NCBI GenBank assembly: GCA_965261425.1
Contig: OZ253452.1
Location: forward strand, 481,160-545,159
Length of the DNA stretch: 64,000 nt
Direction: 5' to 3'
Source: Candidatus Spongiihabitans sp.
GTDB lineage: Bacteria; Pseudomonadota; Gammaproteobacteria; Arenicellales; Poriferihabitantaceae
Below, one piece after another: positions 23,560-40,128 of this stretch. Position 1 is the first letter of the stretch. The number at the start of each line of letters is the position of its first letter. The notes below the pieces were generated by a model, which searched no databases, was not told the DNA's origin, and was given only the letters and a program-made list of their open reading frames with translations. The position numbers and the translations under genes are program-made.

Positions 23560-25551
23560 TCAATAATACAGGAATTTGATGGCTTCTAACAGCCTGGATT
23601 TTAATGTTGCTTTGCTTTGCCATGATTCCAGCGTTACATCACCAGTGCGAAATTCACGGTATAGTTTACTGCTTTCGAGATGGTTGAAAACCGATGCCCA
23701 ATTAGGATAAGGCACGAACCAGTCAGCGTAATATGATTGTAAGTGGTTAATCTGATTAAGTTCGCTTCCACCAGCACCATCATCATCATCATCACCAGCA
23801 GAATCATTATTATTATTATTATTATTATTGATATTGTTTCGATTTCGATTGGTATAGGCGGGAGCTCTGGGCGTGACCAGAATAAGCACCGAGCGTTGGA
23901 AATCAAGCGAAGTGCGGCGTGAAAATAAATACTGAATTAGAGGAATATCTTGCAGAAAAGGCACACCGTCTCGATCGAATCTGGTTTCTTTCTCGCTTAA
24001 CCCACTCAATATCAAGGTATCGCCGATATTCATCACAACATTGGCATTGACCTCGGTTTTCGATGTGTCAACGCGCAACTTAAATCCTACACCCCCACTG
24101 GGCTTGGTTAGAAAGGTGCGTATTGCCTTAATAGCTAATTTAATCTTACCATCTTCGATAAAGGTTGGTTTTACCTGCAAACTCACGCCGATATCTTTTT
24201 CAATTTCAATCGAAGTACCACCACTCCGTCCGCCCTCAGAGACAGCAGCGGCAATAATATTCAAGCCAGAAAAGAAGCTGGAGGTTTTGCCATCCGTTGC
24301 AATCAGCGAGGGTCGTGCCAATACCTCATTGTGGTCGGAAGTGGAGTTGGCAATATTCAGTGAATATTCGAGACCATACTCAGAGATGCTTTTGACTAGT
24401 CTCTCTACACCATCACCGGGGCCTTCATTTGCAAGACGCAACGGACTATCGTACTGCGAACGTAAATGACCGCCTGGTCTGACTTGCCCGTAGTTAAATA
24501 AAAGACGCAGCCCGTTCAATAAATTAACCCCTCTGGAGGATCTGGTCTCCTCCTCAGAACGAATAATCACCACATCTAGAACAACCAGCCGATCGGACCC
24601 TGCATCGACATCGACATCGACATCGTCAGCATCAGCATCACTGGAATACTTGGCATCGTTTTGATCCCTGTATTCCTCTTCCTCGCCGTCGTATGAATCA
24701 TATTTATCCGTATCAGACTCTGACGAAGATCTTGGCGACGAGGTAAATTGTGCAAGCAAGAGCGCATCGTTTGTCAACAAATTGTTAGTTGATGCCTCGC
24801 TGTCAATGACTGGGGCAGGGTTACGTTTATGATAGGCGCGCCAGTCGTCAATTCGTTTTATGGTATATTGGCGACTAATAGCAGGAATATTTGTGGAACT
24901 GTCAAGTGCTTGTTCATTCAATCCCAGGGCTGCCAGCGTGACCGCATAACTGGATTGGTATTGTTGATTATTGGGGGCGGTATTTAGCAATTGCTTAAAA
25001 ACACCCGCGGCTATACTAGGCTGACGTGCCAGATAAGCGGCACTACCCACGTCATTCAGTAAATCCTGATCCGTATTAAACAGTGCGGCTTCTGACAAAT
25101 GATTCAGTGCTTGGATGTAGTTTTTATTTTCCATCTCCAAAATACCGAGAAATCGATGGGCAATCCAATTATTCTGGTCAAGGCGTATTGCTATCATATA
25201 GCCTTCTCTTGCCAAGGGTCGTTTAGACACATCTTGAGTGGACATCAGGTGGTAAGTCAAACCGTTCAGGAATTGCAATGTTGAGTTGTCAATATAGTAA
25301 CTTAATGCTTGATTCAGCCATTTTGACGCACGCTCATAATCACCGCTTGCAAGCCAGCTGAAAACGCGGTGAACGTCTTCATCGGATAATATGGTACGAT
25401 GGCGACCGGTTTTCTTGATCTGCTCAATGTCATGCAAGGTAATTTCGGCGACAGTATTTTTTGATATGACATAATCATTTTGGCGACTCGTATTAGACGC
25501 ACATGATGTAAGCAATAGCATCAGAGTTATATATGAAAGAATTCTGAGCAT
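23560..25551 (-). CDS. Lipoprotein with N-terminal TPR repeats fused to a C-terminal secretin (type II/III secretion / pilus secretin family) domain
   Basis: The lipobox signal peptide MLRILSYITLMLLLTSC sets the start at 25551. It is followed by TPR-like helices and an acidic low-complexity linker. The secretin domain reads LARPSLIATDGKTSSFFSG, VSLQVKPTFIEDGKIKL and DGVPFLQDIPLIQYLFSRRT. A ~110-aa C-terminal extension follows poly-N/poly-D runs. Confidence 0.75.
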   Translation of the reverse strand: MLRILSYITLMLLLTSCASNTSRQNDYVISKNTVAEITLHDIEQIKKTGRHRTILSDEDVHRVFSWLASGDYERASKWLNQALSYYIDNSTLQFLNGLTYHLMSTQDVSKRPLAREGYMIAIRLDQNNWIAHRFLGILEMENKNYIQALNHLSEAALFNTDQDLLNDVGSAAYLARQPSIAAGVFKQLLNTAPNNQQYQSSYAVTLAALGLNEQALDSSTNIPAISRQYTIKRIDDWRAYHKRNPAPVIDSEASTNNLLTNDALLLAQFTSSPRSSSESDTDKYDSYDGEEEEYRDQNDAKYSSDADADDVDVDVDAGSDRLVVLDVVIIRSEEETRSSRGVNLLNGLRLLFNYGQVRPGGHLRSQYDSPLRLANEGPGDGVERLVKSISEYGLEYSLNIANSTSDHNEVLARPSLIATDGKTSSFFSGLNIIAAAVSEGGRSGGTSIEIEKDIGVSLQVKPTFIEDGKIKLAIKAIRTFLTKPSGGVGFKLRVDTSKTEVNANVVMNIGDTLILSGLSEKETRFDRDGVPFLQDIPLIQYLFSRRTSLDFQRSVLILVTPRAPAYTNRNRNNINNNNNNNNDSAGDDDDDGAGGSELNQINHLQSYYADWFVPYPNWASVFNHLESSKLYREFRTGDVTLESWQSKATLKSRLLEAIKFLYY
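23778..23829 (-). repeat. In-frame trinucleotide microsatellites (GAT)5 and (AAT)8 inside the secretin gene
   Basis: On the + strand, (CAT)5 is at 23778-23792 and (ATT)8 at 23806-23829. They encode DDDDD and N8. A third tract, (CATCGA)4 at 24603-24626, encodes DVDVDVD. Confidence 0.9.
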
Positions 25552-25690
25552 AATAGCACCTCTATTCACTGTCTTTTTCCGCGATTGCGGTGTAAGTCCC
25601 CGCTCTTTTATATTCATGGGCAAATCCTCATGTATGCCATATACACTGCGGTTTCCTTCTGCATCGCCCACCTCCGGCATACATGCAGGA

Positions 25691-26264: not shown

Positions 26265-27269
26265 TCAATTTGTCGGCATATGAGTAACACCAAGGTGTCT
26301 AGGTACGCTACCGGATAACGTACCACTATTTTTCGGTATGTTCATGCGCACACCACTATCTGTGTTCGTAAAATTTATCATTTGATTGACAACAATGGAA
26401 ATTAATTCTGGAGATGTGTTAGCGGAACTAAACAACACCGCTTTAGTTGAGATAGTCTGAAACAAGCGCGTTTCCCCCTGATTGTCAATATAGGATAACT
26501 CGACCTTAAACAGCAACGGCTTCTGTTTGATTATTTCATCAATAGTTTGATTGCTCAACGACAACATGCGTAATGGGCATTGCTCTTGCAAATTATCGTA
26601 AAAGCTTGAAGGATAGGCAATCAACTGAAAAGCAACATCTGTTTTGCCGGTACACAGTGCGGCAATAACTTTGCTGGACCCGTATTCATTTATCTCGGCA
26701 AAATCATTGTTTTTAAAGTTCTTGATGCGAAACAAAAATTCACTAAATGTTCTTCGGCCCGAACCTTTGCTACCAATATTAACGCGTTTCCCAACTAAAT
26801 CATCAACGCTATTTATGTCAGAATCCTCTCGAACTATCATGGTTAGCGGATTATCGTAAAGTGGCGTAATTATTCGTAATTCATCAAAATTCTGGTTTGC
26901 AAAACTTTCTTTTCTCCTATAAGCGTCTTCCAGCAGATCGTTTCGAGTCAATGCCAATTCCAAAATCCCCTGCTTAACAGCATGTATATTGTAAACAGAT
27001 CCGCCAGTAACAATTGCAACACATCGCACACCAGATTGTATAATCTGGAGGTTGACCGCATGGCAAATTCCACTCCCTACTGGATAATAGGCACCGCCTT
27101 TTTTGCTGGTTCCTAGCAATAACAATGTGGATTTCGGGTTTAAACCTTCAACAGCAAAGGTTGTTGTTGGAGAGAATAATCCGATCAACAACCAAGCCAA
27201 TGTTGTCAGTATAACTGGCAACGTTGCAGACCATTTCATGATAGGACGAAATTTATCTATCTTTATCAT
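26265..27269 (-). CDS. TAXI-family (TRAP-T associated) / PhnD-like periplasmic solute-binding protein, orphan
   Basis: Signal/anchor helix, then GGAYYPVGSGICHAVN...IVTGGSVYNIHAVKQGILELALTRNDLLEDAYR, which resembles the TAXI signature GGxYYxxGxxxA...TxGSxxN...GxxDxAxxQxDxxxxAY. No TRAP membrane subunits are nearby. Confidence 0.55.
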   Translation of the reverse strand: MIKIDKFRPIMKWSATLPVILTTLAWLLIGLFSPTTTFAVEGLNPKSTLLLLGTSKKGGAYYPVGSGICHAVNLQIIQSGVRCVAIVTGGSVYNIHAVKQGILELALTRNDLLEDAYRRKESFANQNFDELRIITPLYDNPLTMIVREDSDINSVDDLVGKRVNIGSKGSGRRTFSEFLFRIKNFKNNDFAEINEYGSSKVIAALCTGKTDVAFQLIAYPSSFYDNLQEQCPLRMLSLSNQTIDEIIKQKPLLFKVELSYIDNQGETRLFQTISTKAVLFSSANTSPELISIVVNQMINFTNTDSGVRMNIPKNSGTLSGSVPRHLGVTHMPTN

Positions 27270-27300: not shown

Positions 27301-28104
27301 TCAGGGCTTTGCTTCTGCCACCGTACATTGATGTACCGTACCGTTAGGCAGAATAGCATCGCAAAAAATCACGCCCTCCAAGTTGCTACTAGCTAGTTGT
27401 GCGCCACGCATATCGGCACCGGTAAAATTCGAAAATGCCAAATTGGCACCAAAAAATGAGGCCCCCTGCAAATCGCTGTTACGAAATGATGCGTCCACTA
27501 AATGCGCATAATCAAAATTAGCATTGGCCAATTTCGCATCATTCATCTGTACTCGGTGCATGTTGCTATGCGAAAAAACAGCTTCTGCAAAATCACTATT
27601 ATTAAAATTAGCCCTCGCGACATAACTGTACCTGAAATCAGCGCGCCACCCAATTGCATTTTGAAATTGAGTGCCGAGTGCGGTAGTGTACAGGGCAAAA
27701 GCGTCTATAAGCCGAGCATCGTTGAACAAAGCCCCGGTAAGGTTTGCAGCAGTTAGGTCTGCCCATTCCAAGTCAATCCATCCAGCATGTGAGAAATAAA
27801 AGTCAGCACCACGAAAATTAGCTCCTCTTGCCGAGCTATGCGACAAGTCACTGTAGTTAAAGTTTGCCCGATTAGCGTCGGCGCGCTCCAAAACAGATAA
27901 AGTTAAAATTGCGCTCCGAAAGTTGGCACTAGAAATATCTGAATTGTTTATATTCGCACCGAACAAATAGCGACCAGAAAAGTTCTTGCGAGACAGGTCG
28001 TTTCCACTCATGTCAACATATTTTTGACTGCACAAATTGCATGGTTTAGCGCAACCGCTTACCAACAGAGCGTATATCAACAATGTGCAGATTTTGATGT
28101 ACAT
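27301..28104 (-). CDS. Pentapeptide-repeat lipoprotein
   Basis: Lipobox LLVSGC followed by ~40 tandem pentapeptide units (ANFRGADF, ADLTAANLTGALFNDARL, SDLQGASFFGANLAFSNFTGADMRGAQL). Confidence 0.85.
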   Translation of the reverse strand: MYIKICTLLIYALLVSGCAKPCNLCSQKYVDMSGNDLSRKNFSGRYLFGANINNSDISSANFRSAILTLSVLERADANRANFNYSDLSHSSARGANFRGADFYFSHAGWIDLEWADLTAANLTGALFNDARLIDAFALYTTALGTQFQNAIGWRADFRYSYVARANFNNSDFAEAVFSHSNMHRVQMNDAKLANANFDYAHLVDASFRNSDLQGASFFGANLAFSNFTGADMRGAQLASSNLEGVIFCDAILPNGTVHQCTVAEAKP

Positions 28105-28186: not shown

Positions 28187-28261
28187 CAAAATTGTAGGCA
28201 CGCATTGTAGCACATGCATTCATACGAAGTATAAGATTGAACATTATTTTGTATGGGTAAC

Positions 28262-28542
28262 GAAATATCGTTATCAGTTATTAGTGGGGGAATATATCAT
28301 TTAACGCCATTGAATCGCTAAACAGTGTCATTCGCAAAGCGATTAAAAAACGCAAGCTATTTCCAACGGACGATTCTGCCAAGAAAGTAATTTATCTGGT
28401 TATTGATGCGGCATCCAAAAAGTGGACTATGCCAATCCGAAATTGGAAATTAGCATTGAGTAGATTTATGATAGAATTCGAACACCGCTTGGCGGATTAC
28501 ATTGAACCTCATGGCAGTTACACAGAATTATTTACAGGGTCT
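28262..28542 (+). pseudogene. IS256-family transposase 3' fragment with element end
   Basis: My translation gives FNAIESLNSVIRKAIKKRKLFPTDDSAKKVIYLVIDAASKKWTMPIRNWKLALSRFMIEFEHRL..., the conserved C-terminus of IS256/Mutator-type transposases. Similarity to the second copy ends at ...TTTACAGGGTCT (28542). Confidence 0.8.
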
Positions 28543-28778
28543 GAATAATCGATACTCGGTCAAAAATAAGTCAAAAGGTGACATTACTGCTTTGGGCTAA
28601 CACCTGTGAGTGAAGGGTTGCAAACTGCCGAACAAAACAATTACAATCCGCGGATTGCGCGTTTGTAGCTAGAGATTACTAAAAATAACATTAGTCGGGC
28701 AAAGTAGCGTTTTTATTCTGATATAAATTTAACAGCAAGCTGGCCCGTAACTTATCCATCGAAACCAGAAAAGTAGAA

Positions 28779-29213
28779 TTGTCAATGGAAATACTTCTAT
28801 CAATAGGGGGCAGGCGGTTGTGCTCAGATTATGTCGCACATGAGCGACAACAATTGCAGATTTCTCAAAAAATCAAAGCATTACGTCAGCAAGTGACCAA
28901 TTTGTATCGTGCCAAACAGAGCTTACACAAGCGTATTTTGGCATTGCAATCGTTGGTTTTCTACGATGGTAAAAAACTGGGTGCAACCAAAAGAGACTGT
29001 GCAGGAATGACGAATACGGGTTTCTTGCACAGTCTCAAAAGTGGGTTCACCAGAGACGACCGCACCAGTAACAAGGTTCTGTATGCACAAAACGCGCAAT
29101 CAGTGCTTGATTTGATTAACGTGATTCACAATTACATTATTTTAGGATTGAAGTTAAACAAGCTGCGGGTGTTTTGTCTCTGGAATATATCAAAGCGGTT
29201 AAATAGAAAATGA
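28779..29213 (+). CDS. Hypothetical ORF (doubtful; partly built from a dispersed-repeat module)
   Basis: TTG start, with the stop overlapping the next start (ATGA at 29210-29213). Residues KRDCAGMTNTGFLHSLK are encoded by repeat module 28992-29036. The N-terminal part is coiled-coil-like. Confidence 0.25.
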   Translation: MSMEILLSIGGRRLCSDYVAHERQQLQISQKIKALRQQVTNLYRAKQSLHKRILALQSLVFYDGKKLGATKRDCAGMTNTGFLHSLKSGFTRDDRTSNKVLYAQNAQSVLDLINVIHNYIILGLKLNKLRVFCLWNISKRLNRK

Positions 29214-30664
29214 ATTCAAATATGATAAACGACGACGCTAAAGAAGAAGCCGTCAGTTTGAGGATGGGAGTACAAACCGTAGGCTGGTTGTCACTGTTGA
29301 TTGTTCCGTGGACGATCTACTATTCGACAGATTGGACTGCGTTAAATGTTTCCACACCGGTTAGTTACTGCATTCTACTGTTGCTATGTGCGGTGCTTAT
29401 GTGGGTTTTTCGTTTAGTACCTGATTTTGTGCCCAGTATTTTTCTGTTGATAGGCTGCTTATTCTTAGGTGTTGCTCCGCCTAATGTTATATTTTCAGGC
29501 TATGGGTCGACAACTTTTTTCTTGGCACTTAGTGTCTTGAGTTTAAGCGGTGTCATCATGCGTTCGGGGTTGAGTAAACGGATTATTCTGTATGCTATGC
29601 ACAAAGGCCGGCCAAATAATAAGTTTTTATTCTCTACCATCGTGTTCTTTTTTGGTATTGTCTCAACACCATTCATTCCCAGCACCAATGCACGGTCTTC
29701 CATGATAGCACCTTTTCTTGATGATGCGCTAAAACATATCCCACAAAACTCCAAAGAACATCAGCGACTGATTATTTCCCTGTTGAGCGGGATTAGTCTG
29801 CTTTCGCCAATGTTTCTCAGTGCTAAATCAATCAATTTGCTATTCTGGGGTATGCTCTCCGTTCAGGATCAAAATGTTTTCAATTATATATTCTGGGTTA
29901 TCGCAGCCGCGGTGCCGGGGGTTATTATGGTTATCCTGTTTTTAATTGTTCAGGGGTTATTGTTTTGGAATAACGAACACATCGTCATTAACCGAGAGTT
30001 TATTGAACAGCAATATCGTAGTTTGCCCAAACTGAGTAAACAGGAAATAATAGGATTTGTTGCTTTAATTGCTTTCGTTGTCTTGATTCTTACTTACTCC
30101 TATCATCGGATTGATATTTATTTGGTTGCCTTTATGGTGTTTTTTGCGTTGTTGTTTTTTAATGTTCTCGACAAGCAACAAATTTCTTCTTCCATCGACT
30201 GGAGTTTTCTGATTTTCCTCGGTGCAATGATTGGCTTTACGCAGGTTATTCAGTTTTTGAATCTCGGTGATTTTATTACATCTGGACTTTCTTGGTTGAT
30301 GCAGTACTTGAAAACCAATATATTCCTGTTTATAATTTACCTGTCATCGGTGGTTTTTCTGTTTCGTCTGTTCATGCCTATTAACGCAACAGTTATTTTA
30401 TTGGCGGGCGCGTTGATACCTGCTACGGCAATTTATGGGAACTATGCGTGGATAATAGGGTTCATTATTTTAATGATGTCGGAGTCTTATATATTGCCAT
30501 ATCAAGCCAGTTACTATATGCAGTGTGAATCTATTTTAGGAAAACGTCACGCGCAAGCACTCCGTTCGCATCGGGTTTACGCGGTCAATGGGTTAACCTT
30601 TTTAATCAAGCTTATTGCGATTTTGTTGTCGGTGCCGTACTGGGATTTGTTGGGGATATTGTGA
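29210..30664 (+). CDS. DASS/SLC13-type anion:cation symporter family membrane protein
   Basis: 484 aa with ~12 or more TM segments. The hairpin-tip motif IPSTNARSSMIAPF resembles the DASS SNT-AR signature. Confidence 0.6.
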   Translation: MNSNMINDDAKEEAVSLRMGVQTVGWLSLLIVPWTIYYSTDWTALNVSTPVSYCILLLLCAVLMWVFRLVPDFVPSIFLLIGCLFLGVAPPNVIFSGYGSTTFFLALSVLSLSGVIMRSGLSKRIILYAMHKGRPNNKFLFSTIVFFFGIVSTPFIPSTNARSSMIAPFLDDALKHIPQNSKEHQRLIISLLSGISLLSPMFLSAKSINLLFWGMLSVQDQNVFNYIFWVIAAAVPGVIMVILFLIVQGLLFWNNEHIVINREFIEQQYRSLPKLSKQEIIGFVALIAFVVLILTYSYHRIDIYLVAFMVFFALLFFNVLDKQQISSSIDWSFLIFLGAMIGFTQVIQFLNLGDFITSGLSWLMQYLKTNIFLFIIYLSSVVFLFRLFMPINATVILLAGALIPATAIYGNYAWIIGFIILMMSESYILPYQASYYMQCESILGKRHAQALRSHRVYAVNGLTFLIKLIAILLSVPYWDLLGIL

Positions 30665-31749
30665 TTTCGAAATTTACCCGTATGCCTATGCGCGACATGA
30701 TTGCGCCCATTTTAGCACTATTGTTTTTTGTCGAGATGGGTAGCTTTTTCATTATCTCCAGTGCAAGTAAAGTAAAGATTTTAATTCTGCACAGTTACAC
30801 GCCCGAATATTCGTGGACTGAGGGTATCAATAATGGTATCGACCGGATTCTGTCCGATAAAAAATGGATTGGCAACAAGTGGATTGATATTAGCTACCAC
30901 TACATGGCAACAAAAAATGCCGACGCTACTCAAAAAAGACGAGCACAAAAAAACGCTCACCGTGGCATCGAAAATGGTGAACCCGATATCCTCATCGCCA
31001 TTGACGATAATGCGAATTCTTTGGTGGCTAAAGAGTATGTGAATAGTCGGAAAATGAATATCATTTTTGCCGGGGCCAATGGCAGTGTCGCCCCTTACGG
31101 ATATGAGAATGCCTCCAACGTTACTGGCATCTATGAACACAAGCCGGTAGCGGCACTGGTTGAGTTGATTGACGTTATCAATAAATATGAAGAAAAGACA
31201 GTTTCGGTGGTTTTTGTATCCGATAAGAGTAGCTCAGCACAACTTGATGCTGAACACATGAAGCAAGCCTATTGGGGAAAGGTTTCTTATGAAGGGCATA
31301 TAAGTGTCGATAGTTTTTCTGAATGGAAAAAGGTTATCCTTAATTTGCCCGATAATATTGATTACGTTTTAGTGGGCGGTTATCGTAAACTAAAACTTCT
31401 TGACGGTTCAAACAGGCGGGCTTCCTCCACTGCGGTTGCTCATTGGACTGCAAAGAACTCAACACCAATAGTACTTGGTTTGAATGTATTTAATTCTGAG
31501 GATGGGGTGCCCATATCGGTAGGTGTATCACCTTATGAGCAAGGGGAAATGATTGGATACATGGTGACAAATCTGATAAAAACGGGACGACCTGCGGGGG
31601 ATTTTGAACACATATATCCCAGTCAATATGTTTATTCCTTTAATGGGAACACGGTCGTTAATAATTCAAAAATATACAACAAATCAATTGGCTTGGTAGA
31701 GGCCTTTGCTCGGGCATCCAATCACTATTACCAAACAATCGACGGGTGA
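30661..31749 (+). CDS. Membrane-anchored periplasmic protein with ABC-substrate-binding-like (PF04392-type) sensor domain, no output domain
   Basis: The GTG start overlaps the upstream stop (GTGA). It has one N-terminal TM helix. The following KILILHSYTPEYSWTEGINNGIDRIL motif typically opens the periplasmic domain of many sensor kinases and cyclases. Confidence 0.5.
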   Translation: MISKFTRMPMRDMIAPILALLFFVEMGSFFIISSASKVKILILHSYTPEYSWTEGINNGIDRILSDKKWIGNKWIDISYHYMATKNADATQKRRAQKNAHRGIENGEPDILIAIDDNANSLVAKEYVNSRKMNIIFAGANGSVAPYGYENASNVTGIYEHKPVAALVELIDVINKYEEKTVSVVFVSDKSSSAQLDAEHMKQAYWGKVSYEGHISVDSFSEWKKVILNLPDNIDYVLVGGYRKLKLLDGSNRRASSTAVAHWTAKNSTPIVLGLNVFNSEDGVPISVGVSPYEQGEMIGYMVTNLIKTGRPAGDFEHIYPSQYVYSFNGNTVVNNSKIYNKSIGLVEAFARASNHYYQTIDG

Positions 31750-32234
31750 TGTCAATCATCATTCACAGAACATTCGTAGAAAAGTTGTTTATTGAGGTCT
31801 TTGCTGGTATGATTGGCAAAGACTGTTTTTTTAAGCACAGTGTTGCACTTGTGAGTTGCAATTCACCAATTACCCTTGGAGTTTTATTATGAAAAAATTT
31901 ATTATTACATTTTTTAGTATTGTCTTTTTGTTACCTGCTTTTGCTTATGCAGGTTCCTATTGTGTTGAGGCCTTTGCTCGGGCATCCAATCACTATTACC
32001 AAACAATCGACGGGTGATGTCAATCATCATTCACAGAACATTCGTAGAAAAGTTGTTTATTGAGGTCTTTGCTGGTATGATTGGCAAAGACTGTTTTTTT
32101 AAGCACAGTGTTGCACTTGTGAGTTGCAATTCACCAATTACCCTTGGAGTTTTATTATGAAAAAATTTATTATTACATTTTTTAGTATTGTCTTTTTGTT
32201 ACCTGCTTTTGCTTATGCAGGCTCCTATTGTGTT
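31699..32234 (+). repeat. 268-bp tandem duplication (2 copies)
   Basis: 31699-31966 and 31967-32234 are near-identical. Each copy spans the last ~17 codons of the 30661-31749 gene, the intergenic region and the first 26 codons of the array gene. Confidence 0.9.
31889..32017 (+). pseudogene. Chimeric 42-codon stub: array-gene signal peptide fused to the 3' end of the upstream gene
   Basis: ATG at 31889 with the same RBS (GGAG). It translates MKKFIITFFSIVFLLPAFAYAGSYCV|EAFARASNHYYQTIDG-stop. It is below the ORF-track size cut-off. Confidence 0.7.
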
Positions 32235-32738
32235 AAAGTCCCGACAAGTGGGAATAGCAAGTGGACAAAACGTGACAACCATATCCCCATTAGGTTCTTC
32301 TTTACATACGAAATCGTGTATAAGGACGGTAGTGTTTGGGCAAGGATACATGAGAATAGAATAGGTGCCAATCAAACTGGATACAAACATTTTCGTGTTA
32401 GTGGTGGGAGCAATGATAGATCCCATTTCGAATACAAGTATATTGGCTACGGAGCTTCTGACTACTGTCTTGATCTCGATAAATTGACGGCTAACATGAA
32501 CGATGATTTTGATAAGCTCACAAGAGACGGGATTCAGGCTAGCCTACCCGGTATGCGTAGTCGATATTATAACTCTGATTACTCGGTCGTGGTTAAAAAT
32601 ATTAAGGCAGATATAAGATGGGGCGGAGACTGCCCGACAATATCAGGAAATCAGGTTACCTCGGGGAGTAATCATGTAGTTAAAGTCCATCGTCGCCGCG
32701 GTGATCATATCAATCCCTTTGGTTGTAAATGGTGGTGA
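32157..32738 (+). CDS. Secreted 4-Cys protein, variable-core family, paralogue 1 (most divergent)
   Basis: I place the start at MKKFII (32157), with GGAG 8 nt upstream. Sec signal peptide, then conserved YCVK, DYC, GGDCP and HRRRGDHINPFGCKWW-stop. Confidence 0.8.
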   Translation: MKKFIITFFSIVFLLPAFAYAGSYCVKVPTSGNSKWTKRDNHIPIRFFFTYEIVYKDGSVWARIHENRIGANQTGYKHFRVSGGSNDRSHFEYKYIGYGASDYCLDLDKLTANMNDDFDKLTRDGIQASLPGMRSRYYNSDYSVVVKNIKADIRWGGDCPTISGNQVTSGSNHVVKVHRRRGDHINPFGCKWW

Positions 32739-32796
32739 ACCAGAAGCGGGTTTTTACGGGACTTTGTTTTAACAAAGGTTGTTTCCTCCCGCTCAA

Positions 32797-32825
32797 TGCA
32801 ACAAATGGATTTGTTGCATTTTTGT
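32797..32825 (+). terminator. Rho-independent terminator after paralogue 1
   Basis: TGCAACAAA-TGGA-TTTGTTGCA (perfect 9-bp stem) followed by TTTTTGTTTTGTT. It is preceded by a second nested hairpin (CTTTGTT-TT-AACAAAG inside GCGGG...CCCGC). Confidence 0.7.
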
Positions 32826-32840
32826 TTTGTTCGATATAAT
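32811..32840 (+). promoter_or_regulatory. Candidate sigma70 promoter repeated in front of each array gene
   Basis: Perfect -10 TATAAT at 32835-32840 with TTGTTG 18 bp upstream. Equivalent -10 boxes lie at 33565-33570 (TATAAT), 34213-34218 (TGTAAT) and 34849-34854 (TATAAT), each ~45 nt before a GGAG-N8-ATG. Confidence 0.4.
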
Positions 32841-32889
32841 CGTTTTGCCAGTTTAGGAAAGTTGAACTAATTATCCTTGGAGTTTTATT

Positions 32890-33468
32890 ATGAAAAAATT
32901 TATTATTACATTTTTTAGCATTGTCTTTTTGTTACCTGCTTTTGCTTATGCAGGTGCCTATTGCGTTAAATTCCCTTCAGACGGGAATAGCAAGTGGTCA
33001 AAACGTGATAACAACATCCGAGCTAGATTCAAGTATGATTACGAACTAACGTATGAAGGAGGCAGTTTTAAAGGTAATGCCATAGCAAGTGCCAATTTGA
33101 CGTTTCTTGATGTGGGTAATCATGGCTTTCATCTTTCTTACGAGAAGTTTGACTACGGATCTTCTGACTTTTGTATTGACACTGATGGATTGGCAGCCAA
33201 AGTGAGACAATCTGCCACTAGGCATGCTGACGGTGCTACCCATGCTATAAACAAAACGGGGGATGTAACGAAGTCCAACCAGTGGGATGCCATACGGAAT
33301 AATAGGGAAAATTTGGTAGCTACTGTTAAGCGTGTTTGGCTGGATGTCAAGTATGGCGGAGACTGCCCCAAAATCAGTGGCAATCTGCTTGCCTCAGGTA
33401 GGCATATCGTTAAAATCTATCGTCGCCGTGGCGATCATATCAATCCCTTTGGTTGTAAATGGTGGTGA
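32890..33468 (+). CDS. Secreted 4-Cys protein, variable-core family, paralogue 2
   Basis: 192 aa with the same signal peptide and the same N and C modules. The core is unique. Confidence 0.8.
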   Translation: MKKFIITFFSIVFLLPAFAYAGAYCVKFPSDGNSKWSKRDNNIRARFKYDYELTYEGGSFKGNAIASANLTFLDVGNHGFHLSYEKFDYGSSDFCIDTDGLAAKVRQSATRHADGATHAINKTGDVTKSNQWDAIRNNRENLVATVKRVWLDVKYGGDCPKISGNLLASGRHIVKIYRRRGDHINPFGCKWW

Positions 33469-33526
33469 ACCAGAAGCGGGTTTTTACGGGACTTTGTTTT
33501 AACAAAGGCTGTTTCCTCCCGCTCAA

Positions 33527-33556
33527 TACAACAAATGGATTTGTTGCATTTTTGTT
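33527..33556 (+). terminator. Rho-independent terminator after paralogue 2 (one stem mismatch)
   Basis: CAACAAA-TGGA-TTTGTTG followed by CATTTTTGTTTTG. Confidence 0.6.
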
Positions 33557-33619
33557 TTGTTCGATATAATCGTTTTACCAATTTCGGCAAGTTGAACTAA
33601 TTACCCTTGGAGTTTTATT

Positions 33620-34174
33620 ATGAAAAAATTTATTATTGCATTTTTTGGTATTGTCTTTTTGTTACCTGCTTTTGCTTATGCAGGTGCCTATTGCGTTAAA
33701 TTCCCTTCAGACGGGAATAGCAAGTGGTCGAAACGTGATAACAACATCCGCGTTAGATTCAAGTATGAGTACGAAGTCACGAATGAAGGAGGTACGATTC
33801 ATGGTGATGCCATAGCAAGTAGCAATTTGTCGTTTGTTGATTTGGGTGATGATGGCTTTTATCTTAATTATGTGCCTTTTGACTACGGATCTTCTGACCA
33901 TTGTATTGACACTGGTGCATTAGCAGCCAAAGTGGAACAGTCTGGCACTGAGCATGTTCGGGCTGCTGTCCATGCCTCATCAAGGTTAGAGGATTTTGGC
34001 ATGTTGTATCCAGATAATTCGGTAGCTACTATTAAGCGTGTTTGGCTGGATGTCAAGTATGGTGGAGATTGCCCCAAAATCAGTGGCAATCTGCTTACCT
34101 CAGGTAAGCATATCGTTAAAATCCATCGTCGCCGTGGTGATCATATCAATCCCTTTGGTTGTAAATGGTGGTGA
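33620..34174 (+). CDS. Secreted 4-Cys protein, variable-core family, paralogue 3
   Basis: 184 aa. The core is related to paralogue 2 in its first half only. Confidence 0.8.
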   Translation: MKKFIIAFFGIVFLLPAFAYAGAYCVKFPSDGNSKWSKRDNNIRVRFKYEYEVTNEGGTIHGDAIASSNLSFVDLGDDGFYLNYVPFDYGSSDHCIDTGALAAKVEQSGTEHVRAAVHASSRLEDFGMLYPDNSVATIKRVWLDVKYGGDCPKISGNLLTSGKHIVKIHRRRGDHINPFGCKWW

Positions 34175-34267
34175 ACCAGAAGCGGGTTTTTACGGGACTT
34201 TGTTTTGTTTGATGTAATCGTTTTGCCAATTTCGGCAAGTTGAGCTGATTACCCTTGGAGTTTTATT

Positions 34268-34810
34268 ATGAAAAAATTTATTATTACATTTTTTGGTATT
34301 GTCTTTTTGCTACCTGCTTTTGCTTATGCAGGCTCCTATTGCGTTAAGTTCCCTTCAGACGGGAATAGCAAGTGGTCGAAACGTGATAACAACATCCGAG
34401 TTAGATTCAAGTATGATTACGAAATAACGAATGAAGAAGGCAAGCTTGAAGGCAATGCCACAATAGGTAGCAATTTGGTTGATGTGGATCGTGATTACAA
34501 GTATTTTAACTACGGATCTTCTGACTATTGTATTGGTACTGGTGCATTGGCAACTAAAGCGCAACAGTCTGTCGATTGGCATATCTATAATGCCGTTACC
34601 GCAAAGGAAGATTTTTTGTTGCCCAAGTCTACGCACATAACGTATCCACGTAACTCGGTAGCTACTATTAAGCGTATTTGGCTGGATGTCAAGTATGGCG
34701 GAGACTGCCCCAAAATCAGTGGCAATCTGCTTACCTCAGGTAAGCATATCGTTAAAATCCATCGTCGCCGTGGTGATCATATCAATCCCTTTGGTTGTAA
34801 ATGGTGGTGA
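34268..34810 (+). CDS. Secreted 4-Cys protein, variable-core family, paralogue 4
   Basis: 180 aa. The first half of the core is shared with paralogue 5. Confidence 0.8.
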   Translation: MKKFIITFFGIVFLLPAFAYAGSYCVKFPSDGNSKWSKRDNNIRVRFKYDYEITNEEGKLEGNATIGSNLVDVDRDYKYFNYGSSDYCIGTGALATKAQQSVDWHIYNAVTAKEDFLLPKSTHITYPRNSVATIKRIWLDVKYGGDCPKISGNLLTSGKHIVKIHRRRGDHINPFGCKWW

Positions 34811-34903
34811 ACCAGAAGCGGGTTTTTACGGGACTTTGTTTTGTTTGATATAATCGTTTTGCCAATTTCGGCAAGTTGAACTAATTACTCTTGGGGTTTT
34901 ATT

Positions 34904-35437
34904 ATGAAAAAATTTATTATTACATTTTTTGGTATTGTCTTTTTGCTACCTGCTTTTGCTTATGCAGGCTCCTATTGCGTTAAGTTCCCTTCAGACGGGA
35001 ATAGCAAGTGGTCGAAACGTGATAACAACATCGGAGTTAGATTCAAGTATGATTACGAAATAACGAATGAAGAAGGCAAGCTTAAAGATAATGCCACAAC
35101 AGGTAGCAATTTGGTTGATGTGGATCGTGATTACAAGTATTTTGACTACGGTTCTTCTGACTATTGTATTGACACTGATGCATTAGCGGATGTAGCGCAA
35201 CGATTTGTCGCTTGGCATATCTATCATGCCACAGACCTAGATCCGTTACGACCGAATGATCGTGTACGGTATCCACCTAACTCGGTAGCTACTATTAAGC
35301 GTGTTTGGCTGGATGTCAAGTATGGCGGAGATTGCCCCAAAATCAGTGGCAATCTGCTTACCTCAGGTAAGCATATCGTTAAAATCCATCGTCGCCGTGG
35401 TGATCATATCAATCCCTTTGGTTGTAAGTGGTGGTGA
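34904..35437 (+). CDS. Secreted 4-Cys protein, variable-core family, paralogue 5
   Basis: 177 aa. The second half of the core is unique and contains an indel. Confidence 0.8.
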   Translation: MKKFIITFFGIVFLLPAFAYAGSYCVKFPSDGNSKWSKRDNNIGVRFKYDYEITNEEGKLKDNATTGSNLVDVDRDYKYFDYGSSDYCIDTDALADVAQRFVAWHIYHATDLDPLRPNDRVRYPPNSVATIKRVWLDVKYGGDCPKISGNLLTSGKHIVKIHRRRGDHINPFGCKWW

Positions 35438-35509
35438 AGCAGAAGCGGGTTTTTACGGGACTTTGTTTTACTTGAATTCACATTATAGGTGTAACGCTGT
35501 GGTTAAAAA

Positions 35510-36262
35510 AGACCCTGTAAATAATTCTGTGTAACTGCCAAAGGTTAAATGTAATCCGCCAAGCGGTGCTTAAATTCTATCATAAATCTATTCAATGCTA
35601 ATTTCCAATTTTGGATTGGTATAGTCCGCTTTTTGGATGCCGTATCAATAGCCAGATAAATTACTTTCTTGGCAGGATAGTCCAAAGGAAATAGCTTGCG
35701 TTTTTTAATCGTTTTGCGAATGACACTGTTTAGCGATTCAATGGCCTTAATCGTGTAAATGGCTTTGCGTATATCCTCATGTAGTTGAACAAGGTGTTCA
35801 GGTTATGCCAATGAGCGTGCTATGAACGGCTGATTTGAGGGTATTTGCCATCCCTCCGTTCAGCGAACTCATTCAGTTCCTGCAAAGCTCCTGCTTCCAA
35901 TGCTGAGCGGTAAATCTGTTTCAGGTCAGCCGGCACGGCTTTATAGTCGTTCCAAGATACATATTTCATTAAAATTATGTATCATATGGACAATACACAA
36001 CTGGATTTGGGTATCCGGAAATACCGTATTGATGGCATCTGGAAAGTCTTTCAAACCATCAAACACAGGCAATCAGAATATCCTTCACGCCACGATTGTT
36101 AAGCTCCGTGAGAACATTAAGCCAAAACTTAGCAGCCTCGTTTTCCGATGGCCACATCCCGAGTAATTCCTTGTGTCCCTCCATGTTGACACCTGAGGCA
36201 AGATATGTCTTTGTTGATAACCCGCTTATCTTGGCGAATTTTGACGACAATACTGTCTAGAT
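35510..36262 (-). pseudogene. IS256-family transposase remnant (frameshifted, 5'-truncated by the IS5/IS1182-like copy B)
   Basis: The reverse complement of 35510-35760 is colinear with 28300-28542, ending in ...TTTACAGGGTCT. Track ORF 36059-36250 ([44 protein letters not shown]) is the conserved IS256 catalytic core region. Multiple stops and frameshifts lie between. Confidence 0.8.
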
Positions 36263-38040
36263 AGAGTCTGCTCACAAAGTCGGTTTTGGATATTTAAATC
36301 TGTTCCAGCCAAGCAATTGGCACAATCTGTACCCGTCCAATCGCAGTTGGTGTCGCCCAGTGTTCGTTATCGACCTTATCGACCCTATTAGTCGCCTTAT
36401 TTTGGGCACAAAAAAGACCTTCAGCAGGATGAGCAGGTTCATGACTAGGAAAATGCTGTTGATCCATGCAACCGAAGTGTCTGCTCGCTTGGCACGGATG
36501 TAATTCAGTCGATAACCGTTCTTTGCCTGACCAAATTTGCCTTCTATTGGAATCCGTTGTAGGTAATCCGCTCGACGTTGCGCTTTGAGTTGCTTCAACA
36601 CCTCTCGATTCGCTTCTGTTACCTGTTTGGGTCTGCCTAATGGCTTGCCCGAAAAACGGATGCCCAATCCTTTCAAGTAGTGCCGGTTCTCTCGACTACC
36701 ATATATCGGATCACCGATAACGCTTACGGGATAGCAACCATAACGTTCATGGTAACGCTCAACCTGACCCTGCAAATCATGCCCCTCATGAAACGCATCC
36801 CAACTTAAATGATCAACTCGGGATAACCCGTGTGTCGTTAAACTCACGCTCAACTTCGAACCAAACTCAACCGACTTACCTTGCTTACCTCGCACAATCG
36901 GACGCACATACGGTTGATGAATGCTCACAATCCGATTATCACAGCGACGGCTTTTGTTGCGGTACATCTGCCATTGCTGTGCATAGACATGCTGAATGAC
37001 CCAGTAGTGGTATAGCAGCCTGCGTGACAAAGGCAACGCCGTGCCCATCGGGAAACAATCCATTAAACCCTCAATATGACCGACATTGCGCCGCAAGTAT
37101 TGCAGTTGTTGCTTGATCGCTCGTTGGGTCGCTTGACGTTTGGGACGACGCTGTTTGACCAACCCGAGAAAATCTTTACGTGCTTGGCGACGATAGGTGC
37201 GTGGTTTCTGACTGAACTCCGTGTGTGGATACAATTCGTCAATGATCCGTTCCGCCATCTCACGCGCTTCATTCAGTAAACTTAAATCCGTGGGATACCG
37301 TATCGCTTGCTCTGCCACAGTCGCATCGATTATCAACTTACCTTCGTGGCTGGGTGCTTCCACAGTGGTGGCAGGCGAAATTGGGGGATTATCCTCCCCT
37401 TGCGGGTCTTGATTGGGTTCTGGTTTTGGCTCTGGCACGGACTCTGGCTCTGATTCATCACCCGACTTGTTGGTCTGTGTGGATGCCTTCAAACCATCCT
37501 TAACGCTGCGTTGCGGCACGACCTGCGCCTTTTCCACAGCACCAATAATCGCTTGATGGAACACTTCAAAAACAGTATCCCCCATACGCTTGCGTACTTC
37601 AACCAGCAACGAGGGTACAAACGGGACTGATCTTTGATAACCGGCAAGCCCGACAAAGTATTGCAGATACGGATTCTCCTGAATCTGACTCACCGTTTCC
37701 CGATCAGACAACCCTAGTTTGTGTTTGATGATCACCGCACCGATGATTAAACGAGCATCTTTTGCTGCCCGACCCCGCTTTGACGAGAGGCTTTTATGAT
37801 AGCCCTGTGCTAACCCATCCCATGGAATGCACTGACCTAGTTTCACCCAGCGGTTGTGTGCATCAAGAGCGGTGTGAAACGGCCAGTCAAATTCTGCGAT
37901 AGTACGTTGGTTGGAATCGTTATAATCAATCATAGCTGCAAGGTTTTAGAGGTTATTGGGCTGATTTCCATGCAGAATTATACCACAAAATCACTATTAC
38001 TTGTTTATATTCAGATAGATATATTTTATGAGCAGGGTCT
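36263..38040 (-). mobile_element. IS5/IS1182-like insertion sequence, copy B (intact)
   Basis: Ends AGAGTCTGCTCACAAAG ... TTTTATGAGCAGGGTCT. It contains one uninterrupted transposase ORF. The flanks (AGAT / AAAG) do not match each other. Confidence 0.9.
36272..37933 (-). CDS. IS5/IS1182-family transposase (DUF772-type N-terminus + DDE domain)
   Basis: 553 aa. The N-terminal block GRAAKDARLIIGAVIIKHKLGLSDRETVSQIQENPYLQYFVGL is typical of this transposase group. Confidence 0.85.
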   Translation of the reverse strand: MIDYNDSNQRTIAEFDWPFHTALDAHNRWVKLGQCIPWDGLAQGYHKSLSSKRGRAAKDARLIIGAVIIKHKLGLSDRETVSQIQENPYLQYFVGLAGYQRSVPFVPSLLVEVRKRMGDTVFEVFHQAIIGAVEKAQVVPQRSVKDGLKASTQTNKSGDESEPESVPEPKPEPNQDPQGEDNPPISPATTVEAPSHEGKLIIDATVAEQAIRYPTDLSLLNEAREMAERIIDELYPHTEFSQKPRTYRRQARKDFLGLVKQRRPKRQATQRAIKQQLQYLRRNVGHIEGLMDCFPMGTALPLSRRLLYHYWVIQHVYAQQWQMYRNKSRRCDNRIVSIHQPYVRPIVRGKQGKSVEFGSKLSVSLTTHGLSRVDHLSWDAFHEGHDLQGQVERYHERYGCYPVSVIGDPIYGSRENRHYLKGLGIRFSGKPLGRPKQVTEANREVLKQLKAQRRADYLQRIPIEGKFGQAKNGYRLNYIRAKRADTSVAWINSIFLVMNLLILLKVFFVPKIRRLIGSIRSITNTGRHQLRLDGYRLCQLLGWNRFKYPKPTL

Positions 38041-38183
38041 AAAGTAAGTGTAATGTAATGCTTAATTTCGGGTTCTTGAGTGAGTGCCGATTGTTCGGAG
38101 ATGTTTTGCAACTTATTATTTCAGATTTATTATCCAGTTATCCACAAAGTTATCCACAGATGGAGGGGGTGGGGAAAAAACCA

Positions 38184-40125: not shown

Positions 40126-40128
40126 GAG

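What the first reader, a model, noticed from the sequence alone, without database searches (positions are those of the whole stretch)
31889..35437. Tandem array of five paralogous secreted 4-Cys proteins (plus a chimeric stub) with constant ends and a mosaic hypervariable core; no family I recognise
Five consecutive same-strand genes of 177-193 aa lie at 32157-32738, 32890-33468, 33620-34174, 34268-34810 and 34904-35437.

Shared architecture:
- A near-identical Sec signal peptide, MKKFII(T/A)FF(S/G)IVFLLPAFAYAG.
- A conserved N module, YCVKFPSDGNSKWSKRDNNIRVRFKYDYE.
- A central segment of roughly 50-80 aa that differs in sequence and length in every copy.
- An almost invariant C module, SVATIKRVWLDVKYGGDCPKISGNLLTSGKHIVKIHRRRGDHINPFGCKWW-stop.
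- Four positionally conserved Cys residues (after the signal peptide, in SSD(Y/F/H)C, in GGDCP and in FGCKWW), which suggests two disulfides.

Pattern of variation:
- At DNA level copies 2-5 are nearly identical in both flanking modules, while the core is block-wise mosaic.
- Copies 4 and 5 share the first half of the core (NLVDVDRDYKYF(N/D)YGSSDYCI) and then diverge completely, with an indel.
- Copies 2 and 3 share another core type in their first half.
- Copy 1 is divergent throughout.

Constant ends, cassette-like variable middles and tandem arrangement are the signature of segmental gene conversion or diversifying selection, as in variable surface or secreted protein families. They are not expected from uniform drift after duplication. 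Each unit carries its own candidate -10 box and RBS.
Basis: partly seen in the sequence, partly recalled or inferred. Interest (0 to 1): 0.85.

Follow-up and report, generated by a model that had tools for sequence, protein, structure and literature searches.

The report
Variable secreted-protein gene array beside secretin
A sponge-symbiont bacterium carries a tandem row of five related genes for small exported proteins of an undescribed family, whose ends are kept alike by gene conversion while the middles differ, and in three bacterial lineages such genes lie beside an unusual outer-membrane secretin channel that may release them.

Summary
Five intact same-strand genes (177-193 aa) plus a stub lie at the stated coordinates, with a near-identical signal peptide, conserved N and C modules, four conserved Cys and a divergent core.

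The stub comes from a 268-bp tandem duplication.

The family matches nothing in Pfam, NCBIfam, PHROGs, PADLOC or PDB sequences. A pLDDT-81 model has no Foldseek match. A profile search of 1.84 billion proteins finds 24 clusters.

The host is a sponge-symbiont gammaproteobacterium related to Ca. Spongiihabitans.

Eight strain haplotypes from one long-read metagenome carry the same five core types at 96-100% identity. So the cores are not hypervariable between strains. Copy number (2-7 intact copies) and order do vary.

In the constant ends, 27 of 29 within-type polymorphisms carry another paralogue's allele (9% expected), which indicates ongoing gene conversion. The cores show excess nonsynonymous change and jumps in synonymous divergence. 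Breakpoint-type tests were not significant.

New finding: family arrays lie next to a stand-alone TPR-lipoprotein secretin in three lineages, and homologues occur in phages.

Best reading: diversified Sec-exported proteins, possibly released through that secretin. Their function is unproven.

The parts
31699..32234 (+). 268-bp tandem duplication (31699-31966 and 31967-32234). It covers the 3' end of the upstream gene, its terminator, the array's upstream region and the first 27 codons of copy A.
   Evidence: The two copies are 267/268 identical at an offset of 268.
31889..32017 (+). Chimeric stub ORF: signal peptide plus 'SYCV' fused to EAFARASNHYYQTIDG, the tail of the upstream gene.
   Evidence: The family HMM hits only its N-terminal part (E=3e-8).
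31796..31824 (+). Terminator-like hairpin after the upstream SBP-like gene (13-pair stem plus T-run).
   Evidence: A second copy lies at 32064-32092 inside the duplication.
32157..32738 (+). Copy A (193 aa), the divergent paralogue. Variable core 32322-32585.
   Evidence: It lies first or last in the array depending on the strain.
32739..32889 (+). 151-nt spacer with a terminator-like hairpin (32795-32820), a TATAAT box and a GGAG ribosome-binding site.
32890..33468 (+). Copy B (192 aa). Variable core 33055-33318, with an 8-codon insertion.
   Evidence: It is duplicated in strains L004, L007 and L008, and the duplicate in L004 and L008 has diverged to the B' form.
33469..33619 (+). 151-nt spacer of the same class as the A-B spacer.
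33620..34174 (+). Copy C (184 aa). Variable core 33785-34024.
   Evidence: This copy was the one modelled.
34175..34267 (+). 93-nt spacer lacking the hairpin segment.
   Evidence: The same junction has a 142-nt spacer in strains L004 and L089.
34268..34810 (+). Copy D (180 aa). Variable core 34433-34660.
34811..34903 (+). 93-nt spacer containing the only promoter-like site found by the consensus scan (34825-34854, TG-extended TATAAT).
34904..35437 (+). Copy E (177 aa). Variable core 35069-35287.
   Evidence: It is duplicated in strains L007 and L008.
23560..25680 (-). Stand-alone secretin: lipobox, N-terminal TPR region, acidic linker, secretin C-domain and a conserved C-terminal extension. 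No Secretin_N domain was detected.
   Evidence: Homologues 47-63% identical adjoin family members in L090-L093, L094 and L153/L154.
26265..27269 (-). TAXI/NMT1_3 periplasmic solute-binding protein, a conserved neighbour of this secretin subgroup.
27301..28104 (-). Pentapeptide-repeat lipoprotein, a conserved neighbour of this secretin subgroup.
29210..30664 (+). DASS-family anion:sodium symporter, part of the conserved five-gene module.
   Evidence: L100 has the same module.
30661..31749 (+). Membrane-anchored protein resembling PF04392 substrate-binding proteins. It is the last gene of the module, and its 3' end is duplicated into the stub.

Best explanation
**Shown**
- The locus is a tandem array of five intact paralogues, plus one duplication stub, of an undescribed family of small exported proteins.
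- Each protein has a cleavable Sec-type signal peptide (AYA|G), four conserved cysteines, a conserved N module (YCVxxPxxGNSxWSKRDNxIxxRF) and a conserved C module (DVKWGGDCP...RRxG(D/N)HxNP(F/W)GC).
- In the model the two modules contribute most of the strands of a beta-sheet.
- Two hypervariable segments lie between the modules. In the window array HV1 falls after 'RFxYxY', across the second strand of the 43-66 hairpin and the loop beyond it. HV2 is a helical hairpin plus loop after the second Cys.
- The array evolves in two ways. Whole units are duplicated, lost, moved or partly duplicated by recombination between the near-identical ends and spacers. Gene conversion also keeps homogenising the ends and spacers.
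- The cores stay distinct and accumulate mainly amino-acid-changing differences.

**Inferred**
- The proteins are exported by Sec and disulfide-bonded in the periplasm.
- They are then released or surface-exposed through the genetically linked stand-alone TPR-lipoprotein secretin.
- The conserved scaffold displays variable binding surfaces, so one cell carries a repertoire of about ten specificities aimed at external partners (host, phage or competitor molecules).
For: **Anatomy and variation.**

**Novelty of the family**
- No hit in Pfam, NCBIfam, PHROGs, PADLOC or PDB sequences.
- The AlphaFold2 model has pLDDT 81.4 and pTM 0.76. Its best Foldseek hits are E>=0.16 with TM<=0.30 in PDB and BFVD.
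- Only 6 clusters were found among 5.8 billion proteins by the word-indexed search, and 24 among 1.84 billion by the exhaustive profile search.

**Population evidence.** Eight strain haplotypes keep the same five types but differ in number and order: A-B-C-D-E, B'-B-C-D-E-A, B-C-D-E-A, and A-B-B-C-D-E-E in L007 (A-B-B'-C-D-E-E in L008). Spacer classes of 151, 149, 142, 113 and 93 nt swap between junctions.

**Gene conversion.** In the ends, 27 of 29 polymorphisms carry a paralogue's allele against 9% expected.

**Selection**
- Omega is 0.1-0.5 in the ends and 1.2-2.5 in the proximal core.
- Polymorphism is 19:8 (nonsynonymous:synonymous) in the core against 11:18 in the ends, p=0.018.
- The B' duplicate has 5 nonsynonymous changes within 13 nt and no donor was found.
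- In the second locus, the three 159-aa copies have all five of their amino-acid-changing differences in codons 59-67, four of them in codons 59-60; copies 2 and 3 differ at only two nucleotides, both in codons 59-60.

**Secretin link**
- In the same species, 2-3 copies of a 159-aa member plus a 152-aa member lie directly upstream of a secretin paralogue that is 63% identical.
- In a second species, an 8-copy array ends 62 nt before a secretin that is 55% identical, and the repertoire varies between strains.
- In a third lineage, four members flank a pentapeptide-TAXI-secretin module whose secretin is 47% identical.
- The secretin has a lipobox and a TPR region but no detected Secretin_N domain, and no T2SS or T4P genes are nearby.
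Against: - There is no expression, localisation or secretion data.
- In the window the secretin lies about 6.5 kb away on the opposite strand, and a terminator-like hairpin separates the array from the upstream operon.
- None of 53 metagenomic loci with this secretin type carries a family member in its flanks. The secretin therefore does not require this family.
- Some family members lie far from any secretin: P0006, P0039, and the phage or prophage copies P0036, P0038 and the P0052-like gene.
- A subgroup without signal peptide or Cys exists, so the fold is not intrinsically extracellular.
- Breakpoint-type recombination tests were not significant, and single-pair omega>1 values are not significant.
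Confidence: 0.5

Rival explanations
1. The array encodes periplasmic inhibitor or immunity proteins. They stay in the periplasm and neutralise a diversified set of periplasm-acting enzymes, such as host or phage muramidases or contact-dependent toxins. Several paralogues would cover several enemy variants.
For: - The proteins have a Sec signal peptide and no lipobox.
- Tandem paralogue arrays are typical of immunity genes (general knowledge).
- In a Mu-like prophage, homologue P0036 starts at the last base of a GH108 endolysin gene, inside the lysis cassette.
- Another homologue lies on a circular 42-kb phage-like contig.
- The conserved polar loops (RDN, WGxDC, RRxGNHxxPW) could form an inhibitory surface.
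Against: - The endolysin adjacency is a single case.
- No toxin or effector gene adjoins any of the arrays.
- The model has no Foldseek similarity at E<0.1 to any PDB chain, and no Ivy, MliC/PliC, PliI or PliG structure appears among the 50 best matches.
- This reading does not explain the repeated adjacency to a secretin in three lineages.
Confidence: 0.2
2. The proteins are subunits or tip proteins of an extracellular fibre or surface layer assembled through the secretin. This would resemble pilin or curli subunit genes that lie in tandem beside their outer-membrane channel.
For: - Arrays lie directly upstream of the secretin and on the same strand.
- The conserved ends could be polymerisation interfaces and the variable middle could be the exposed part.
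Against: - There is no prepilin-type signal and no amyloid-type repeats.
- The globular sheet-plus-helix model gives no sign of donor-strand or pilin architecture.
- No assembly ATPase, usher or nucleator gene is nearby.
Confidence: 0.1
3. The locus is a classical antigenic-variation system: one expressed gene plus silent donor cassettes that are copied into it by segmental gene conversion.
For: - The ends are constant, the middles are variable and the arrangement is tandem.
- Gene conversion is active in the ends.
Against: - All five copies have a start codon, signal peptide, ribosome-binding site and stop codon.
- The core types are stable at 96-100% identity across eight haplotypes, with no shuffled cores.
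- Conversion is seen in the ends, not in the cores.
Confidence: 0.03
4. The array consists of neutral or decaying duplicates with no present function. The variable middle would simply be unconstrained sequence.
For: - The genome is dense in insertion sequences and is being rearranged.
- Some strains carry disrupted copies (L003, L006).
- Omega is close to 1 in the distal core.
Against: - Reading frames are intact for every type in all haplotypes.
- Omega is 0.1-0.5 in the ends.
- The architecture, including the positions of the two variable segments, is conserved in a second species with eight copies.
- Core types are retained between strains.
Confidence: 0.05
5. A diversity-generating retroelement or another targeted mutator creates the variable core.
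For: - Substitutions are highly localised: 5 changes within 13 nt in B', and codons 59-60 in the second locus.
- A reverse-transcriptase gene lies 1.2 kb from P0036 in the prophage.
Against: - The window has no reverse-transcriptase-like ORF and no template repeat for any core.
- No repeat was found around P0036.
- The changes are not specific to adenines.
- The cores differ by indels and are stable between strains.
Confidence: 0.02

Closest known systems
Tandem multigene families of variable secreted or surface proteins in host-associated bacteria (for example the Staphylococcus aureus nuSa-alpha tandem lipoproteins Lpl/DUF576 and the SSL cluster; recalled from general knowledge, not tested here)
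   Same: - Head-to-tail paralogues with conserved leader and framework regions and variable middles.
- Copy number differs between strains.
- Recombination between repeats drives gain and loss of units.
   Different: - No sequence or fold relationship.
- These are not lipoproteins.
- The organism is a Gram-negative sponge symbiont.
- The arrays are linked to a secretin.
Expression-site/silent-cassette antigenic variation (Neisseria pilE/pilS, Borrelia vlsE/vls)
   Same: Constant flanks, variable cassettes and gene conversion between copies.
   Different: - Every copy is a complete gene.
- Conversion acts on the flanks rather than moving cores.
- The cores are stable across strains.
Curli secretion (type VIII: CsgA/CsgB subunits with the CsgG lipoprotein channel)
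   Same: Proposed mode of operation only. Sec-exported proteins encoded beside a dedicated outer-membrane lipoprotein channel, with no inner-membrane ATPase or pseudopilus genes.
   Different: - The channel is a secretin (PF00263), not CsgG.
- The cargo is a globular four-Cys protein, not an amyloid repeat protein.
- Secretion has not been demonstrated.
Secretins of T2SS, type IV pili, T3SS and filamentous phage (GspD, PilQ, SctC, pIV)
   Same: The C-terminal secretin domain is detected at E about 1e-29.
   Different: - No N0 or Secretin_N domains were detected. Instead there is a lipobox, a TPR region and an acidic linker.
- No partner machinery genes are present.
- The conserved neighbours are a TAXI binding protein, a pentapeptide-repeat lipoprotein, a DASS transporter and a PF04392-like protein.
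Periplasmic lysozyme inhibitors (Ivy, MliC/PliC, PliI, PliG) and periplasmic immunity proteins
   Same: - Small Sec-exported beta-rich proteins with conserved loops.
- One homologue lies next to a phage muramidase.
   Different: - No sequence or fold match.
- No toxin partner at the arrays.

Membership tests
Any curated protein family (Pfam, NCBIfam, PHROGs, PADLOC, PDB sequences) | A profile hit at or above the curated threshold. | tested here: not met
   The best hits are MbnP (E=0.064, 13.6 bits against a cutoff of 27) and Big_3 (E=0.017, one member). NCBIfam, PHROGs, PADLOC and the PDB profile search gave nothing.
Any known fold (PDB, BFVD) | A Foldseek match with E<1e-3 or TM>0.5 to the pLDDT-81 model. 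| tested here: not met
   The best matches are E=0.30 with TM 0.27 in PDB and E=0.16 with TM up to 0.30 in BFVD. AlphaFold DB was not available.
Silent-cassette antigenic variation system | One expression locus plus promoterless, truncated donor cassettes. | tested here: not met
   All five copies have an ATG, signal peptide, ribosome-binding site and stop codon.
Silent-cassette antigenic variation system | Variable regions are reshuffled between closely related genomes. | tested here: not met
   The five core types are 96-100% conserved in eight haplotypes.
Diversity-generating retroelement target | A nearby reverse transcriptase and a template repeat that matches the variable region with adenine-specific differences. 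| tested here: not met
   The window has no reverse transcriptase or template repeat. The substitutions are not adenine-specific.
Concerted-evolution tandem gene family (descriptive class) | Synonymous identity in part of the genes together with paralogue-shared polymorphism. | tested here: met
   dS is 0.03-0.25 in the ends of copies B-E against 0.5-1.9 in the distal core. In the ends, 27 of 29 polymorphisms are shared with other paralogues.
Concerted-evolution tandem gene family (descriptive class) | Copy-number and order polymorphism arising from unequal recombination. | tested here: met
   Arrays hold 2 to 7 intact copies, A lies first or last, B and E are duplicated, and spacer classes swap.
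Type II secretion / type IV pilus substrate or pilin | A prepilin leader (G|F...E5) or neighbouring GspE/F/pseudopilin genes. | tested here: not met
   The leader is Sec-type with an AYA|G site. No such genes lie within the window or the 10-kb flanks of related loci.
Cargo of the adjacent TPR-lipoprotein secretin (proposed, not an established family) | Conserved genomic linkage across lineages. | tested here: met
   Linkage is seen in three lineages and four loci. The reverse does not hold: 53 secretin loci lack family members.
Cargo of the adjacent TPR-lipoprotein secretin (proposed, not an established family) | Secretin-dependent export of the protein. | not testable with these tools
   This needs expression and fractionation experiments.
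Periplasmic lysozyme inhibitors (Ivy, MliC/PliC, PliI, PliG) | The characteristic fold and inhibitory loop motifs. | tested here: not met
   No Pfam hit to these families, and none appears among the Foldseek PDB matches. Inhibitory activity itself was not testable.

The most novel reading that the evidence does not exclude
The arrays and the stand-alone TPR-lipoprotein secretin together form a previously unrecognised minimal two-step secretion system. Sec-exported, disulfide-bonded proteins with a new fold would cross the outer membrane through a self-piloting secretin that has no inner-membrane partner. The cargo genes would be amplified and diversified into strain-specific repertoires in sponge symbionts. 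Their phages would carry homologues, perhaps to interfere with the same pathway.
Probability: 0.3. Interest if true: 0.85.

Novelty: new variant of a known kind. Interest (0 to 1): 0.72.

Why it matters
- Sponge symbionts cannot be cultured, and the molecules they use to deal with host, phages and neighbours are largely unknown.
- This locus offers an uncharacterised exported protein family with no known fold. It is carried at about ten copies per genome and is structurally polymorphic among co-existing strains in one metagenome.
- It is repeatedly linked to an atypical secretin that lacks the usual machinery.
- If the link is functional, it would define a new, very simple route across the outer membrane and a new class of diversified extracellular binding proteins.
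- Even without that, the locus is a clean natural example of concerted evolution of gene ends alongside diversification of cores, observable at population level in long-read metagenomes.

Tried and rejected
- **RGD motif as an integrin ligand.** RRRGDH is invariant in this species' ten or so copies. In relatives the same position reads RKGNH, RKGDL, RRHNH or RSGNH, so RGD does not define the family. Rejected as a basis for function.
- **DGR or template-directed mutagenesis.** No reverse transcriptase or template repeat was found.
- **Breakpoint tests.** The PHI-like and quartet-pattern clustering tests were not significant, p about 0.2. The case for a mosaic history rests on heterogeneity of synonymous divergence and on shared polymorphism instead.
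- **GTDB representative genomes.** Searching with the family profile found no relative.
- **JGI metagenome contigs.** The family profile found none.
- **Phage and plasmid collections.** tblastn found none.
- **IMG/VR.** One Cys-less relative was found. Searching with P0036 found none.
- **Rfam.** Nothing in the window.
- **First structure model.** The 6-sequence model (pLDDT 72) also had no Foldseek match.
- **Second word-indexed homologue search.** Run with the 22-sequence profile, it added only two Cys-less proteins.
- **Literature searches.** Queries on orphan secretins, on secretin with pentapeptide and TAXI, and on the sample accessions returned nothing relevant.
- **Sigma-54 reading of the shared upstream motif.** The spacing between the two half-sites is 7 nt rather than 5 nt (by inspection). 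Not pursued.

Full report
**1. Observation**

The ORF list and the sequence show five same-strand genes at 32157-32738 (A, 193 aa), 32890-33468 (B, 192), 33620-34174 (C, 184), 34268-34810 (D, 180) and 34904-35437 (E, 177). A short ORF precedes them at 31889-32017.

The protein alignment has 82 invariant columns. These cover the whole signal peptide, four cysteines and the C-terminal HRRRGDHINPFGCKWW.

- B-E are 90-100% identical in alignment columns 1-55 and 156-205.
- D and E are nearly identical up to column ~105 and then fall to 30-54%.
- B and C resemble each other (67-87%) up to column ~125.
- A is similar to the others only in the first ~25 and last ~15 codons.

The stub is explained by a 268-bp tandem duplication (31699-31966 and 31967-32234, 267/268 identical). 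It fused the first 27 codons of A to the last 16 codons of the upstream gene.

**2. Organism and population**

PurF encoded in the window is 87% identical to that of 'Ca. Spongiihabitans thiooxidans' and 77% to a Ca. Poriferihabitaceae MAG. The host is therefore a sponge-associated gammaproteobacterium.

All close homologues come from one long-read metagenome, ERZ26693861. That sample holds several co-existing strains with syntenic arrays:

| Locus | Array order |
|---|---|
| window, L089 | A-B-C-D-E |
| L003 | A-B-C-D, two degenerate copies, then E |
| L004 | B'-B-C-D-E-A |
| L005 | B-C-D-E-A |
| L006 | fragment, then D-E |
| L007 | A-B-B-C-D-E-E |
| L008 | A-B-B'-C-D-E-E |

Each type is 96-100% identical between strains. 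The cores are therefore stable paralogue identities and are not hypervariable between relatives. What varies is copy number, order and spacer class.

Spacers of 151, 149, 142, 113 and 93 nt swap between junctions. Copy A keeps its own 3' flank whether it is first or last, and in the window strain that flank has been converted to the B-E type.

**3. Mode of evolution**

Nei-Gojobori estimates for B-E:

| Region | dS | omega |
|---|---|---|
| Ends | 0.03-0.25 | mostly 0.1-0.5 |
| Proximal core (columns 56-105) | 0.11-0.27 | 1.2-2.5 between the B, C and D/E types (D vs E 0.48) |
| Distal core (columns 106-155) | 0.5-1.9 | 0.4-1.0 |

The jump in synonymous divergence is significant: D/E p=2e-5 and B/C p=0.007. 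Uniform drift after duplication is excluded. The data point to older divergence of the cores, with the ends homogenised later.

Direct evidence for homogenisation comes from within-type polymorphism. In the ends, 27 of 29 polymorphic nucleotides carry the base found in another paralogue, where 9% is expected by chance.

Polymorphism in the cores is enriched for amino-acid changes: 19 nonsynonymous to 8 synonymous, against 11:18 in the ends, p=0.018.

A duplicated B copy present in two strains (L004 and L008) has acquired five nonsynonymous changes within 13 nt, and no donor was found.

My PHI-like and quartet-pattern tests were not significant. Single-pair omega>1 values are not significant either. 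The claim of positive selection is therefore suggestive, not proven.

No reverse transcriptase or template repeat exists in the window.

**4. The protein**

Pfam, NCBIfam, PHROGs, PADLOC and PDB sequence searches give nothing.

An exhaustive profile search of 1.84 billion representatives finds 24 clusters at E<=1e-3. All that were checked are unnamed or 'hypothetical'.

The wider family shares the N-module motif YCVxxPxxGNSxWSKRDNxIxxRF and the C-module motif DVKWGGDCP...RRxG(D/N)HxNP(F/W)GC, with a variable middle. Conserved ends are therefore partly a fold property. The RGD in this species is not conserved elsewhere.

A subgroup lacks both the signal peptide and the cysteines. One such gene lies on an IMG/VR viral contig.

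AlphaFold2 with 22 sequences gives pLDDT 81.4 and pTM 0.76. The secondary-structure elements, in copy C numbering, are:
- strands 23-27, 43-55, 58-66 and 94-97;
- a helical hairpin, 98-120;
- strands 135-145, 163-170 and 179-183.

The variable segments correspond to the part after the 43-66 hairpin (HV1) and to the helical hairpin plus the following loop (HV2). Foldseek finds no counterpart in PDB or BFVD.

**5. Genomic linkage to a secretin**

Upstream of the array lies a module:
- a secretin with lipobox, TPR region and secretin C-domain but no Secretin_N domain (23560-25680, minus strand);
- a TAXI binding protein (26265-27269, minus strand);
- a pentapeptide-repeat lipoprotein (27301-28104, minus strand);
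- a DASS symporter (29210-30664);
- a PF04392-like protein (30661-31749).

The same five genes are collinear in a metagenome contig, L100.

Family members adjoin homologous secretins in further places:
- In the same species, 2-3 copies of a 159-aa member plus a 152-aa member lie directly upstream of a secretin that is 63% identical.
- In a second species (metagenome ERZ25069296), an eight-copy array ends 62 nt before a secretin that is 55% identical. Strains there differ in repertoire, and the layout of constant ends with HV1 and HV2 is the same.
- In a third lineage (GCA_051008875.1), four members flank a pentapeptide-TAXI-secretin module.

Evidence against a universal link:
- 53 metagenomic loci with this secretin type have no family member in their flanks.
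- Some members are far from any secretin.
- Some members are in phages. P0036 follows a GH108 endolysin in a Mu-like prophage. P0038 lies on a circular 42-kb phage-like contig.

**6. Interpretation**

The evolutionary description rests on tool results and I hold it with high confidence. It has three parts: a tandem array, concerted evolution of ends and spacers, and retained and diversifying cores with strain-level structural polymorphism.

The functional proposal is inference from signal peptides, conserved cysteines and synteny. It says the proteins are Sec-exported, disulfide-bonded scaffolds displaying variable surfaces, and that the linked stand-alone secretin releases them. I put it near 0.4 on its own.

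The main rival is a periplasmic inhibitor or immunity role. The single endolysin adjacency suggests it. No toxin partner was found and there is no fold match to known inhibitors.

Classical cassette-type antigenic variation, DGR mutagenesis and neutral decay are each contradicted by specific tests (section 3).

**7. Verdict**

The feature is real. It belongs to an undescribed protein family with an apparently new fold. Its mode of evolution is a known kind, namely concerted evolution with diversification in tandem secreted-protein families.

The repeated coupling to an atypical TPR-lipoprotein secretin is new and testable. Interest is 0.72.

Noticed in passing
window 23560-31749; L100 261-7290: A conserved five-gene module of unknown function: TAXI binding protein, TPR-lipoprotein secretin without a Secretin_N domain, pentapeptide-repeat lipoprotein, DASS symporter and a membrane-anchored PF04392-like protein. 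The genes are collinear in L100. In the window the first three are inverted relative to the last two. A secretin embedded among solute-transport genes is unusual.
   Followed up: partly
L100 7739-8154: In L100, a different Cys-rich secreted ORF occupies the position downstream of the PF04392-like gene that the array occupies in the window. It contains a phospholipase-A2-like 'CNTHDQCY' motif and is cut off by the contig end.
   Followed up: no
L130 15857-21830: About 4 kb downstream of another TPR-secretin lie three paralogues of an unrelated Cys-rich secreted protein (9 Cys in the first), interleaved with pentapeptide-repeat proteins. This suggests such secretins may be associated with various Cys-rich secreted families.
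   Followed up: no
window 5793-5845 (minus strand), 31817-31871 and 32085-32139 (plus strand): A 55-nt motif with core GTGTTGCACTTRTGRGTTG is shared at 82% identity between the region upstream of the first array gene and the region upstream of an ammonium transporter gene (4248-5582, minus strand). There are 3 matches in the window against 0.06 expected. It may be a common regulatory site.
   Followed up: partly
L003 10637-12484: Two D-like copies have their 5' halves replaced by a 33-36-nt minisatellite that encodes FAGNIGLPNEP- and FVGDLGFTNDGSS-type repeats. One copy is preceded by four tandem 18-nt repeats of the RBS-ATG region. A single extra repeat of this kind also occurs upstream of the first gene in L089 and L004.
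   Followed up: partly
L097 9282-11700; L155 136-690; L152 8019-8684: Homologues of the family occur in phages. One lies between a GH108 endolysin and a holin-like gene in a Mu-like prophage, with spanin-like ORFs further downstream. One lies on a circular 42-kb phage-like contig. One Cys-less form lies next to an SSB gene on an IMG/VR contig.
   Followed up: partly
window 20488-23317, 36272-37933, 44226-45280, about 35560-36250: The region is dense in insertion sequences. An intact IS5-family element lies at 36272-37933. A second IS5 copy (22232-23317 plus 20488-21069) is split by an IS630-like insertion (21106-22169). Another IS630-like copy lies at 44226-45280. An IS256-like transposase fragment lies just downstream of the array.
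   Followed up: partly
window 35438-41115 compared with L004 11846-20543: In other strains the array is followed by a 273-aa gene, a PIN-domain gene, a ResIII helicase, efp and uvrC. In the window strain the first 160 bases downstream of the array (the stretch compared) match those strains, and beyond lie IS elements and then znuCB/znuA. This points to an IS-mediated rearrangement or deletion.
   Followed up: no
window 26000-36000: G+C content is about 0.40 across the secretin-module and array region, against 0.45-0.52 in most of the window. This is compatible with a horizontally acquired or compositionally distinct island.
   Followed up: no
L001/L002 10001-10573: A single-copy paralogue of 190 aa (P0006), 65% identical to copy A, lies elsewhere in the same species next to fpg/mutM and a PF03601 membrane protein. 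No secretin lies within 10 kb.
   Followed up: no
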